NCBI RefSeq assembly: GCF_046105845.1
Contig: NZ_CP151004.1
Source: Escherichia coli
GTDB taxonomy: Bacteria > Pseudomonadota > Gammaproteobacteria > Enterobacterales > Enterobacteriaceae
DNA length: 64,000 nucleotides
Reading direction: 5' to 3' (one strand)
Shown: positions 6,655 through 7,735 of the stretch, piece by piece
Layout: each line of letters starts with the position of its first letter
Numbering within the stretch: the first letter of the stretch is position 1
Notes under the pieces: model-generated
The model's input: the letters and a program-made list of their open reading frames with translations, nothing else
What the model was told of the DNA's origin: nothing
The model's database searches: none
Translations under genes and position numbers: made by a program

Positions 6655-7735
6655 GTCGTGATGTGAACTGACTCAGGAACCTATCAGATTGAGAGTTACC
6701 GTTCTACTATGAGGACCGAATCCTTATATAAAACACTGAGGTAACTCTCATGCTTCATCGTGACAATCTCGCCAGCAAATTCTAAGCTGACTTGCTCAAT
6801 CTGGCTAATGAAGGTGCTATGGATACACAGATAAACCACAGGTGAAATGCCACTCAGCTTAAGAATCACGCAGCTAGTGTTCCTGGCTATGGTTACTTGT
6901 TCACTCTCGCTCACGGTTAGCATATACGAAAACGGTTCTTGTAACGAGGACAAAAATAAGTCAGACCAAAACCACATGGAGCTTTAAACACGGCTCGTAT
7001 AATTTATTAGCAGCGATTTATTTTTACTCTTCTTTAATTAATCATCATGCTTAAATATTTTTTAGCACACGATTATCGCTTCACTAACATTTTAGTTTAC
7101 ATTGATTCCCAATTGACAATAAAAAATTGTTAATAAGTTTTTGCGAAAAATAAAAAGTGTTGAAATACTCTCCAGTAAACGAATGCAAAATAAACAAACT
7201 AAGGTTTACAAAAAACAAAAACTATTCAAAAGAATATTTTTAATTTATTAGCAGAGTCCATTAACAATGGTTTACTCACGAACAGAAAAGTAAAGAACAC
7301 CTTGCAATAATATGTATTTATAAATTCATATCATTGATATTAAACTAATCTTACTTTCTACCCTCCCAACTTCATACACCAAAAAAACAAAGTAAAATCA
7401 ATTATATACACAACAAGGCAATCTCAAAGGAAATAATATTAAATATCTCAAAACTAATAAAAATTACTAAGACATTAGACGTAACACACATCCCACACGC
7501 CCTGTAGCTCATAGCTTTTATATTTATTTTCTCACATCACTGTAGATAAAAACACGCATTAAAAATGACTTGTAGAAAAGCTGCACAATAAATAGTTCAT
7601 ATTTAGTCTGTTGCGTAGAACTACTATTCAAAAAATCTTATTAATGAGATAATGAGATTACATCGATAACGTTCTGATTGCAGGCATACTTATCTGGGTG
7701 TGCCTCTCTTTTTTTACAACTGTACACGGTGGCGT

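What the first reader, a model, noticed from the sequence alone, without database searches (positions are those of the whole stretch)
6655..7735. About 1 kb AT-rich, ORF-poor leader upstream of the recombinase gene
The region between the betA stop and the recombinase start is strongly AT-rich with no convincing ORF, in contrast to the flanking GC-normal bet genes. This is typical of horizontally acquired, H-NS-silenced DNA. It contains a 13-bp direct repeat, aatttattagcag, at about 6997 and about 7238. Together with 7736-13050 it looks like an insertion between betA and ykgH relative to my memory of K-12, where ykgH directly follows betA.
Basis: partly seen in the sequence, partly recalled or inferred. 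Interest (0 to 1): 0.4.

Follow-up and report, generated by a model that had tools for sequence, protein, structure and literature searches.

The report
AT-rich upstream flank of ipbA/fimX
This AT-rich, gene-free kilobase is the left end of PAI-X, a known E. coli genomic island that K-12 lacks: mostly fast-evolving spacer, then about 200 bp of near-invariant control region for the DNA-flipping enzyme IpbA/FimX that ends in a conserved terminator-like hairpin.

Summary
Window 6655-7735 lies between the betA stop (6654) and the ipbA (fimX/hbiF) start (7736). It is 33% GC, against 49% for the window. It has no convincing gene and carries an exact 14-bp direct repeat.

The insertion reading is correct and already known. 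Positions 6759 to about 13053 are PAI-X (ipbA, the hyxS switch, hyxR, hyxA, hyxB). The island sits between betA and ykgH, is absent from K-12, and is present in about 35% of 5,426 complete E. coli genomes. The first 104 bp (6655-6758) are core DNA, not island.

The interval has four parts:
- A decaying GC-normal stretch with an orphan 93-codon frame.
- A 0.5-kb hypervariable spacer of 27% GC.
- About 200 bp of near-invariant DNA upstream of ipbA.
- Within that, a 10-bp hairpin plus T6-T8 run (7682-7715), ending 20 nt before the ATG.

The hairpin is kept through compensatory changes in a paralogous island and upstream of K-12 fimE.

H-NS silencing is plausible but untested. The hairpin's role as an attenuator or insulator is inferred. 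This is ordinary, already described territory with one modest new detail.

The parts
6655..6758 (.). Core betA 3' flank, shared with K-12. It contains a perfect 11-bp inverted repeat (6690-6700 and 6740-6750) whose right arm ends 8 nt before the insertion point.
   Evidence: Alignment to the K-12-like betA-ykgH spacer is continuous to 6758. The inverted repeat is I12.
6759..13053 (+). PAI-X genomic island, about 6.3 kb (ends uncertain by 2 nt, with AT at both junctions). Contents: ipbA/fimX 7736-8299; hyxS inverted repeats 8298-8330 and 8571-8603; hyxR 8629-9423; hyxA 9577-10338; hyxB autotransporter 10347-12980; GC-rich hairpin 13020-13046.
   Evidence: Boundaries. RefSeq annotation of a 99.8%-identical genome. 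Pfam and NCBIfam hits. Absent from MG1655.
6696..6977 (-). Orphan 93-codon open frame that spans the island/core junction. Judged non-coding, probably a sequence relic.
   Evidence: No Pfam or NCBIfam hit. All 47 database hits are E. coli or unnamed short contigs 70-99% identical, with no distant relative. Variable sites by codon position are 17/23/25. The ATG is lost in the O157-type allele. The L009-type allele has about 95 extra bp inside it. Not annotated in the RefSeq loci examined.
6991..7500 (.). Hypervariable AT-rich spacer, 26.7% GC.
   Evidence: Identity between alleles is 76-93% here, against 98.9-99.8% in ipbA. Only 45-65% of columns are invariant across 7175-7454. Indels are seen. 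The paralogous island L012 has only a 277-bp upstream spacer, with no detectable similarity to this stretch.
7000..7013 (+). Direct repeat copy 1, TAATTTATTAGCAG.
   Evidence: Kept in 6 of the 7 aligned alleles that cover it.
7241..7254 (+). Direct repeat copy 2, TAATTTATTAGCAG.
   Evidence: Exact in only 4 of 8 alleles. Shuffle test gives p of about 0.009.
7535..7735 (+). Near-invariant ipbA-proximal region. Inferred to hold the promoter and the 5' leader.
   Evidence: 80-97% of columns are invariant across five divergent alleles. Also conserved in Escherichia sp. MOD1-EC7003. Single-copy, found in 1,889 genomes, always at least 91% identical, with no annotated feature.
7634..7659 (+). Near-perfect palindrome AATCTTATTA-N6-TAATGAGATT. 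It contains the 8-bp tandem TAATGAGA x2 (7642-7657). Candidate operator or 5' stem-loop.
   Evidence: One allele (L008) has three copies of the 8-bp unit. The segment is absent from the paralog L012.
7682..7715 (+). Terminator-like element: a 10-bp stem-loop (7682-7705) followed by CTC and a T7 run (7709-7715). It ends 20 nt before the ipbA ATG.
   Evidence: Found by the scan and the fold. Across ipbA alleles plus the 81% paralog, 100% of pair cells are paired, with 3 pairs changed on both sides and 4 on one side. Slid controls give 29-64%. With the K-12 fimE upstream hairpin added, 95% are paired and 4 pairs are changed on both sides. T-run alleles: T6 376, T7 138, T8 784, T9 1 records.

Best explanation
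The interval is non-coding. It is made of 104 bp of core betA 3' flank followed by the left end of the known island PAI-X.

Within the island part:
- The first roughly 230 bp are a decaying relic.
- The next roughly 500 bp are a poorly constrained, 27%-GC spacer. It is the kind of DNA that H-NS-type nucleoid proteins coat (inferred, not shown).
- The last roughly 200 bp are the real cis-regulatory region of the tyrosine invertase gene ipbA/fimX.

No room for a promoter is left between the conserved hairpin-plus-T-run (7682-7715) and the ATG at 7736. I therefore infer that ipbA mRNA starts upstream of the hairpin and must read through it. On that view the hairpin works as a leaky intrinsic terminator. 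It would keep recombinase dosage low. It would also shield ipbA from read-through from betIBA and from spurious starts in the AT-rich DNA.

Shown here: the boundaries, accessory status, composition, lack of coding signal, the conservation gradient, and structural conservation of the hairpin.
Inferred only: H-NS binding, promoter position, and termination activity.
For: Island identity and boundaries: plus the literature (PMC6083910, PMC6458436, PMC7545054, PMC11294581).

Non-coding:
- Few and short ORFs.
- The 93-codon frame is an orphan with no codon-position bias and is disrupted in some alleles.
- The 44-codon 'hypothetical protein' annotated in O157-type genomes is flagged frameshifted in another genome.
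- No Rfam family matches.

Conservation gradient:
- 76-93% identity in the spacer, against 96-97% across 7501-7735 and 99% or more in ipbA.
- The last 130 nt are identical across four lineages apart from T-run length.
- The gradient also holds in Escherichia sp. MOD1-EC7003.

Insertion tolerance of the region: an IS3 element at about 7594 in one genome leaves only 142 bp upstream of ipbA.

Hairpin:
- Detected.
- Preserved by compensatory changes at the same distance from the start codon in a paralogous island whose recombinase is 81% identical.
- Also matches a hairpin-plus-T-run 86 nt upstream of K-12 fimE.

Start codon: the in-frame GTG at 7700 cannot be the usual start, because the T6/T7/T8 alleles shift its frame.

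Analogy: the paralogous fimB and fimE promoters are H-NS-repressed (PMC11582573 and references in it).
Against: - No H-NS data exist for this locus. The high-affinity H-NS motif is not enriched (77 matches in the window against 70.6 expected; 2 in the region).
- No good sigma-70 consensus lies in the conserved part. The region has fewer promoter-like sites than shuffles do (4 against 8.3). The best candidate, TTCAAA-N15-GATAAT (7627-7653), has a short spacer and lies in a segment missing from the paralog.
- The first three tail bases after the stem are CUC, and three stem pairs are G-U. Termination may therefore be weak.
- No convincing antiterminator alternative was found.
- The paralog and the Salmonella ortholog STM0716 manage with 277-bp and 514-bp upstream spacers. 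The long AT-rich tract is therefore dispensable for this kind of recombinase gene.
- The Salmonella leader has only a degenerate version of the hairpin.
- RNA-seq in strain MP1 found most genes of its horizontally acquired elements, PAI-X among them, to be expressed rather than silent (PMC12922286).
Confidence: 0.6

Rival explanations
1. The conserved proximal block encodes an independent small RNA that ends at the hairpin and U-run. For example, a roughly 55-nt RNA from a start near 7660, or a longer one from further upstream. It would consist of a single-stranded seed plus an Hfq-type terminator. ipbA would be transcribed only by read-through.
For: About 130 nt immediately upstream of the terminator are more conserved than the ipbA coding sequence. 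The hairpin plus U6-8 is the standard sRNA 3' module. A promoter-like TTCAAA-N15-GATAAT sits at 7627-7653.
Against: No Rfam match, even at E of 1 or below. The candidate promoter segment is missing from the paralogous island, which keeps the hairpin. Overall folding is not unusual (z = -0.35 and -1.23). No expression data are available. At the sequence level this cannot be told apart from a leader attenuator.
Confidence: 0.15
2. Nothing here is functional beyond a minimal promoter. The whole kilobase is decayed filler left from the island's history. The hairpin is only an inherited terminator of a gene that once lay upstream, as it lies between fimB and fimE in the fim locus.
For: High divergence, indels and an IS insertion in the spacer. 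The homologous hairpin in K-12 lies downstream of fimB. Paralogs have much shorter upstream regions.
Against: tblastn with seven Fim-type recombinases, plus HyxR and HyxA, found no significant relic in six alleles (best E = 0.035 in a tiny search space). The near-invariance of 7575-7735 and the compensatory maintenance of the stem argue for present-day selection.
Confidence: 0.15
3. The region encodes a small protein: the 93-codon frame at 6696-6977(-), or the 44-codon frame at 7084-7218(-) that is annotated as hypothetical in O157-type genomes.
For: The 93-codon frame is open in four lineages and was called as a gene in some assemblies. PGAP annotates the 44-codon frame in some genomes.
Against: No family hits. 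No homologs outside this locus. No third-position bias. The start codon is lost or the frame interrupted in some alleles. The 44-codon frame is flagged frameshifted in another genome.
Confidence: 0.03
4. The upstream region contains a second Fim-type invertible switch acting on ipbA itself.
For: An 11-mer next to the hairpin (ACGTTCTGATT, 7669-7679) resembles part of the hyxS left repeat (ACCTTCTGATT, 8306-8316). Imperfect inverted repeats exist at 7130-7152 and 7622-7644 (78% complementary).
Against: 1,885 of roughly 1,890 records that carry the region align colinearly over at least 80% of 6555-7835, and every listed full-length hit is a single piece. Genome-wide sequencing of UTI89 and CFT073 overexpressing each Fim recombinase found only fimS, hyxS and ipuS (PMC6458436).
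Confidence: 0.02

Closest known systems
PAI-X (fimX/ipbA/hbiF, hyxS, hyxRAB) of extraintestinal pathogenic E. coli
   Same: Same locus between betA and ykgH. Same gene order and products. Same invertible-switch repeats directly after the recombinase gene. Accessory distribution: 35% of complete genomes here, against 36% of commensals and about 83% of UPEC reported in PMC6458436 and PMC7545054.
   Different: Nothing differs; the window carries an allele of this island. Its upstream sequence is a rare allele: only 5 records are at least 99% identical over 7500-7735. None of the papers I could read describes the roughly 1 kb upstream of fimX.
The long AT-rich, H-NS-repressed regulatory regions of fimB (1.4-kb nanC-fimB spacer) and fimE in E. 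coli K-12
   Same: A Fim-family invertase gene preceded by an unusually long, AT-rich, gene-free region. The fimE upstream region carries a hairpin-plus-T-run that aligns with the ipbA hairpin, with 8 of 10 pairs kept, one of them by a change on both sides.
   Different: No significant nucleotide similarity to either region outside the hairpin. I did not run a dedicated scan for NanR, NagC or IHF sites; none stood out on reading the sequence. H-NS binding has been shown for fimB and fimE but not for ipbA.
Intrinsic (Rho-independent) terminators acting as 5'-leader attenuators or insulators
   Same: A stem-loop followed by a U-run on the sense strand only. It lies inside the inferred 5' leader, and the stem is maintained by compensatory substitutions.
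   Different: No alternative antiterminator, leader peptide or ligand-binding fold was identified. The first tail bases are CUC. Activity is untested.
STM0716 switch of the Salmonella T1-antigen locus
   Same: The recombinase is 72% identical to IpbA, and a switch with related inverted repeats lies downstream (PMC11294581).
   Different: Its upstream spacer is 514 bp at 36% GC. It has only a degenerate 4-bp version of the hairpin before a T6 run.

Membership tests
PAI-X genomic island | Inserted between betA and ykgH and absent from K-12 | tested here: met
   K-12 homology ends at 6758 and resumes at 13054. MG1655 has betA, then 212 bp, then ykgH.
PAI-X genomic island | Gene content: fimX/ipbA, hyxR, hyxA, hyxB | tested here: met
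   RefSeq annotation of a 99.8%-identical genome. Phage_integrase, GerE and Autotransporter domains. NCBIfam tyrosine-type DNA invertase.
PAI-X genomic island | hyxS invertible element between fimX and hyxR | tested here: met
   33-nt inverted repeats at 8298-8330 and 8571-8603. The interior is present in 1,801 genomes, of which 1,785 show the window's orientation. Inversion itself is documented only in the literature (PMC6083910, PMC6458436).
PAI-X genomic island | Accessory distribution in E. coli | tested here: met
   1,884 of 5,426 complete genomes.
H-NS-silenced xenogeneic DNA | AT content well above the genome average | tested here: met
   26.7% GC in 6991-7500, against 49.1% for the window.
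H-NS-silenced xenogeneic DNA | High-affinity H-NS nucleation motif (TCGATAAATT-like) | tested here: inconclusive
   Two matches with up to 2 mismatches lie in the region (7317 and 7663). The window total of 77 compares with 70.6 expected.
H-NS-silenced xenogeneic DNA | H-NS occupancy, and derepression in an hns mutant | not testable with these tools
   No ChIP or expression data were accessible. Only the analogy with fimB and fimE is available (PMC11582573).
Intrinsic terminator / leader attenuator | Stable stem-loop followed directly by a U-run on the transcribed strand | tested here: met
   10-bp stem at 7682-7705, then CTC and T7. No T-run on the opposite strand (read from the sequence).
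Intrinsic terminator / leader attenuator | Stem maintained by compensatory change in relatives | tested here: met
   100% of cells paired, with 3 pairs changed on both sides. 95% paired with 4 such pairs when fimE is included. The alignments are small (5 and 4 sequences).
Intrinsic terminator / leader attenuator | Alternative antiterminator or a sensing element | tested here: inconclusive
   Folding of 7540-7745 shows an upstream hairpin but no competing pairing with the terminator arms. None was seen by inspection either.
Intrinsic terminator / leader attenuator | Transcripts actually end at the U-run, and the transcription start lies upstream | not testable with these tools
   Needs Term-seq, 5' RACE or in vitro transcription.
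Fim-type invertible DNA switch (within 6655-7735) | Flanking inverted repeats, with both orientations found in nature | tested here: not met
   Only weak inverted repeats. Alignments are colinear in 1,885 records. No extra inversions were found experimentally (PMC6458436).
Protein-coding gene | Conserved open frame with a purifying-selection signature or homologs | tested here: not met
Known RNA family (Rfam) | Covariance-model match | tested here: not met
   No match at E of 1 or below in 6400-8800.

The most novel reading that the evidence does not exclude
The hairpin-plus-U-run, 20-30 nt upstream of the ipbA start, is kept by compensatory change in a paralogous island and upstream of fimE. 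It may be an RNA-level control element shared by part of the Fim-invertase family. It would be a leaky attenuator, possibly releasing a short terminated RNA, that sets recombinase dose and so the switching rates of hyxS and fimS. The lineage-specific U-tract lengths (T6, T7, T8) would tune the amount of read-through.
Probability: 0.3. Interest if true: 0.45.

Novelty: already known. Interest (0 to 1): 0.2.

Why it matters
IpbA/FimX turns on type 1 pili and flips the hyxR switch in uropathogenic E. coli, so how its own expression is set bears on phase-variation rates during infection. The island and its accessory nature are established, so the finding adds nothing there. The useful by-product is a map of the uncharacterised upstream kilobase. 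It shows which roughly 200 bp are under constraint. It also points to a conserved terminator-like hairpin, shared with fimE, as the obvious element to mutate.

Tried and rejected
1. Homology of the ipbA upstream region to the fimB or fimE upstream regions. MAFFT, blastn (word size 7) and Smith-Waterman with shuffles gave nothing significant beyond the hairpin.
2. A relic of a second, fimB-like recombinase gene, or of hyxR or hyxA, in the spacer. tblastn on six alleles was not significant.
3. Identity of the 93-codon frame. No Pfam or NCBIfam hit, and the 5.8-billion-protein search returned only close relatives (70-99% identical), all E. coli or unnamed short contigs.
4. Rfam scan at E of 1 or below: nothing.
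5. H-NS motif enrichment: none.
6. A second invertible element upstream of ipbA: rejected (PMC6458436).
7. Copies elsewhere. The proximal region is single-copy in E. coli. The left-end relic has no paralog. The only 'plasmid' hits are megabase-size records.
8. Orthologs outside E. coli. The genome-contig scan found only one Escherichia sp. contig.
9. A hairpin upstream of other family members. It is absent before fimB and before the Hafnia, Serratia, Salmonella (62% identical) and E. coli (62% identical) recombinases.
10. The primary papers (Bryan 2006, Hannan 2008, Bateman & Seed 2012, Bateman 2013) are not held in the library. I could therefore not check whether the fimX promoter has been mapped.

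Full report
**What is there**

The window carries betT (minus strand) and betI, betB and betA (plus strand, betA stop at 6654). A 564-nt gene then starts at ATG 7736. A 99.8%-identical RefSeq genome annotates that gene as 'tyrosine-type DNA invertase IpbA, also known as HbiF and FimX'. It is followed by hyxR, hyxA, an autotransporter (hyxB), and then ykgH. Domain searches agree: Phage_integrase and NCBIfam DNA invertase for IpbA, GerE for HyxR, Autotransporter for HyxB.

The interval 6655-7735 is 33.2% GC, with a 26.7% core at 6991-7500. betA is 58% and the window 49.1%. The longest stop-free stretch in 6991-7735 is 52 codons, which is below the mean for shuffles. The direct repeat is real: TAATTTATTAGCAG at 7000 and 7241. 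A repeat that long arises in 0.9% of dinucleotide shuffles.

**Is it an insertion?**

Yes.
- A K-12-like genome and MG1655 go from betA through a 212-bp spacer to ykgH.
- Alignment shows the window matching K-12 up to 6758 and again from 13054.
- The inserted block is therefore about 6.3 kb (6759-13053, with a 2-nt AT ambiguity at the junctions).
- The first 104 bp of the finding are core DNA.
- Of 5,426 complete E. coli genomes, 5,172 match the betA end of the query, but only 1,884 carry the full region.

This block is the published island PAI-X. FimX is encoded next to hyxS, an invertible promoter for hyxR that only FimX flips. fimX is reported in about 83% of UPEC and 36% of commensals (PMC6083910, PMC6458436, PMC7545054, PMC11294581).

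**Anatomy of the interval**

I compared alleles from phylogroup-B2-type, O157-type, O145-type and other genomes, plus an Escherichia sp. contig. This shows a sharp conservation gradient.

1. 6759-6990 is GC-normal (43.5%) and 92-94% identical between lineages.
   - It holds a 93-codon minus-strand frame (6696-6977) that runs across the junction into core DNA.
   - The frame has no family hit. Its only database relatives are 70-99% identical proteins, all E. coli or unnamed short contigs.
   - It shows no third-position bias (17/23/25 variable sites). It loses its ATG in O157-type alleles.
   - An allele class found in 86 genomes carries about 95 extra bp inside it.
   - I treat it as non-coding relic.
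2. 6991-7500 is hypervariable.
   - Identity between lineages is 76-93%, against 98.9-99.8% for ipbA. There are several indels.
   - Only 45-65% of columns are invariant across 7175-7454.
   - The 44-codon 'hypothetical protein' annotated here in O157-type genomes is flagged frameshifted elsewhere.
3. From about 7535 to 7735 the sequence is nearly invariant.
   - The last 130 nt are identical in four lineages except for T-run length.
   - This block is single-copy and unannotated in 1,889 genomes.
   - One genome has an IS3 element inserted at about 7594, which leaves 142 bp upstream of ipbA.

**The conserved hairpin**

A terminator-like element lies at 7682-7715 on the plus strand. It is a 10-bp stem (AGGCAUACUU / GGGUGUGCCU), a 4-nt loop, then CUC and U7. 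It ends 20 nt before the ATG.

A second E. coli island carries a recombinase 81% identical to IpbA plus HyxR-like, HyxA-like and autotransporter genes. It is inserted after acetolactate decarboxylase and synthase genes. It has a 12-bp hairpin plus T6 at the same distance from its start codon, with a different stem sequence.

On the joint alignment every pair cell is a standard pair. Three pairs are changed on both sides and four on one side. Slid controls give 29-64% pairing.

A hairpin-plus-T5 lies 86 nt upstream of K-12 fimE (NC_000913.3 4541922-4541951). It aligns in register with 8 of the 10 pairs kept. With it included, 95% of cells are paired and four pairs are changed on both sides. These alignments are small, so this is supportive rather than conclusive.

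The element is absent upstream of fimB and of four more distant family members. It is degenerate in the Salmonella T1-antigen recombinase STM0716.

T-run length is polymorphic between lineages. Exact matches number 376 records for T6, 138 for T7, 784 for T8 and 1 for T9, out of 1,887. This polymorphism also rules out the in-frame GTG at 7700 as the general start codon.

**Mechanism (inferred)**

Only 20 nt separate the T-run from the ATG, and I see no promoter-like hexamers there. ipbA transcripts therefore most probably start upstream and read through the hairpin. That would make it a leaky attenuator or insulator that keeps invertase levels low.

The promoter itself is not identified. The best candidate (TTCAAA-N15-GATAAT, 7627-7653) is weak. 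It overlaps a conserved 26-bp palindrome that contains an 8-bp tandem repeat. That whole segment is missing from the paralog.

H-NS coating of the AT-rich tract is plausible by composition and by analogy with fimB and fimE (PMC11582573). It is untested, and the H-NS motif is not enriched.

**Alternatives examined**

- A second invertible element is excluded by colinear alignments in 1,885 records and by published genome-wide inversion mapping (PMC6458436).
- A relic recombinase gene is not detectable.
- No Rfam family matches.
- There are no copies on true plasmids.
- An independent small RNA ending at the hairpin cannot be separated from the attenuator reading without transcript data.

**Verdict**

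The insertion interpretation is confirmed and already known as PAI-X. The H-NS part is unverified. The interval is mostly unconstrained spacer, with a short conserved control region whose terminator-like hairpin is the only modestly new point.

Noticed in passing
window 8298-8603; L008:2279-2398, L009:2298-2380, L010:3678-3797: The right hyxS repeat is itself a perfect 19+19-nt palindrome (8567-8605), so the left repeat is both inverted and direct relative to it. Some genomes carry a precise 271-bp deletion of hyxS with a hybrid left/right site. This leaves hyxR 58 nt (L008, L010) or 21 nt (L009) after the annotated ipbA stop. About 90 of 1,891 genomes lack the hyxS interior. About 16 seem to have it in the other orientation or rearranged.
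   Followed up: partly
L012:4001-8567 and L013: A paralogous 'PAI-X-like' island in E. coli, inserted downstream of acetolactate decarboxylase and synthase genes. It carries a recombinase 81% identical to IpbA, 242-aa and 248-aa proteins, and an autotransporter. Nucleotide identity to the window island is about 71-86% in patches.
   Followed up: partly
L004:3923-3952 (NC_000913.3 4541922-4541951): K-12 has an unannotated hairpin-plus-T5 between fimB and fimE, 86 nt upstream of the fimE start. It aligns in register with the ipbA leader hairpin.
   Followed up: partly
window 7709-7715: The T-run after the hairpin differs by lineage: T6 in 376 records (O157-type), T7 in 138 (the window's type), T8 in 784 (B2-type) and T9 in 1. 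The remaining 588 or so records differ elsewhere in the 78-nt query.
   Followed up: yes
window 7642-7657; L008: The 8-bp unit TAATGAGA is present twice in the window and three times in strain GPEC102. It lies inside the conserved 26-bp palindrome upstream of ipbA.
   Followed up: no
L010:1762-2990 (window about 7594): An IS3-family element is inserted in the ipbA upstream region of strain FDAARGOS_1303. It leaves only 142 bp of native sequence before ipbA.
   Followed up: no
L006 (window 7736-7746); L002: The O145 allele has an 11-bp deletion that removes the ipbA ATG. In O157:H7 F7349, ipbA, hyxR, hyxB and ykgH are all annotated as pseudogenes or fragments.
   Followed up: no
L009:800-905 (window about 6920): An allele class found in 86 genomes has about 95 extra bp in the island's left end and a left junction shifted by 4 nt (CATATCC|GCAG). 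This may be closer to the ancestral end of the island.
   Followed up: partly
window 6400-6758: The betA 3' end and the core flank next to the island are unusually divergent between lineages. Identity is 92.5-96.9% in betA 6400-6654 and 89-100% in the core flank. This suggests old alleles or recombination linked to the island.
   Followed up: no
window 6690-6750 and 13020-13046: A perfect 11-bp inverted repeat with a 39-nt spacer lies in core DNA and ends 8 nt before the insertion point. A 12-bp GC-rich hairpin with no T-run sits at the island's right end, just after hyxB.
   Followed up: no
window 10380-12980: hyxB is highly variable between alleles, with large indels (212-1,332 gapped columns) and 86-95% identity, unlike ipbA, hyxR and hyxA.
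   Followed up: no
window 1-600, 17100-17400, 18300-18600: Other AT-rich troughs (30-34% GC) lie elsewhere in the first 20 kb of the window.
   Followed up: no
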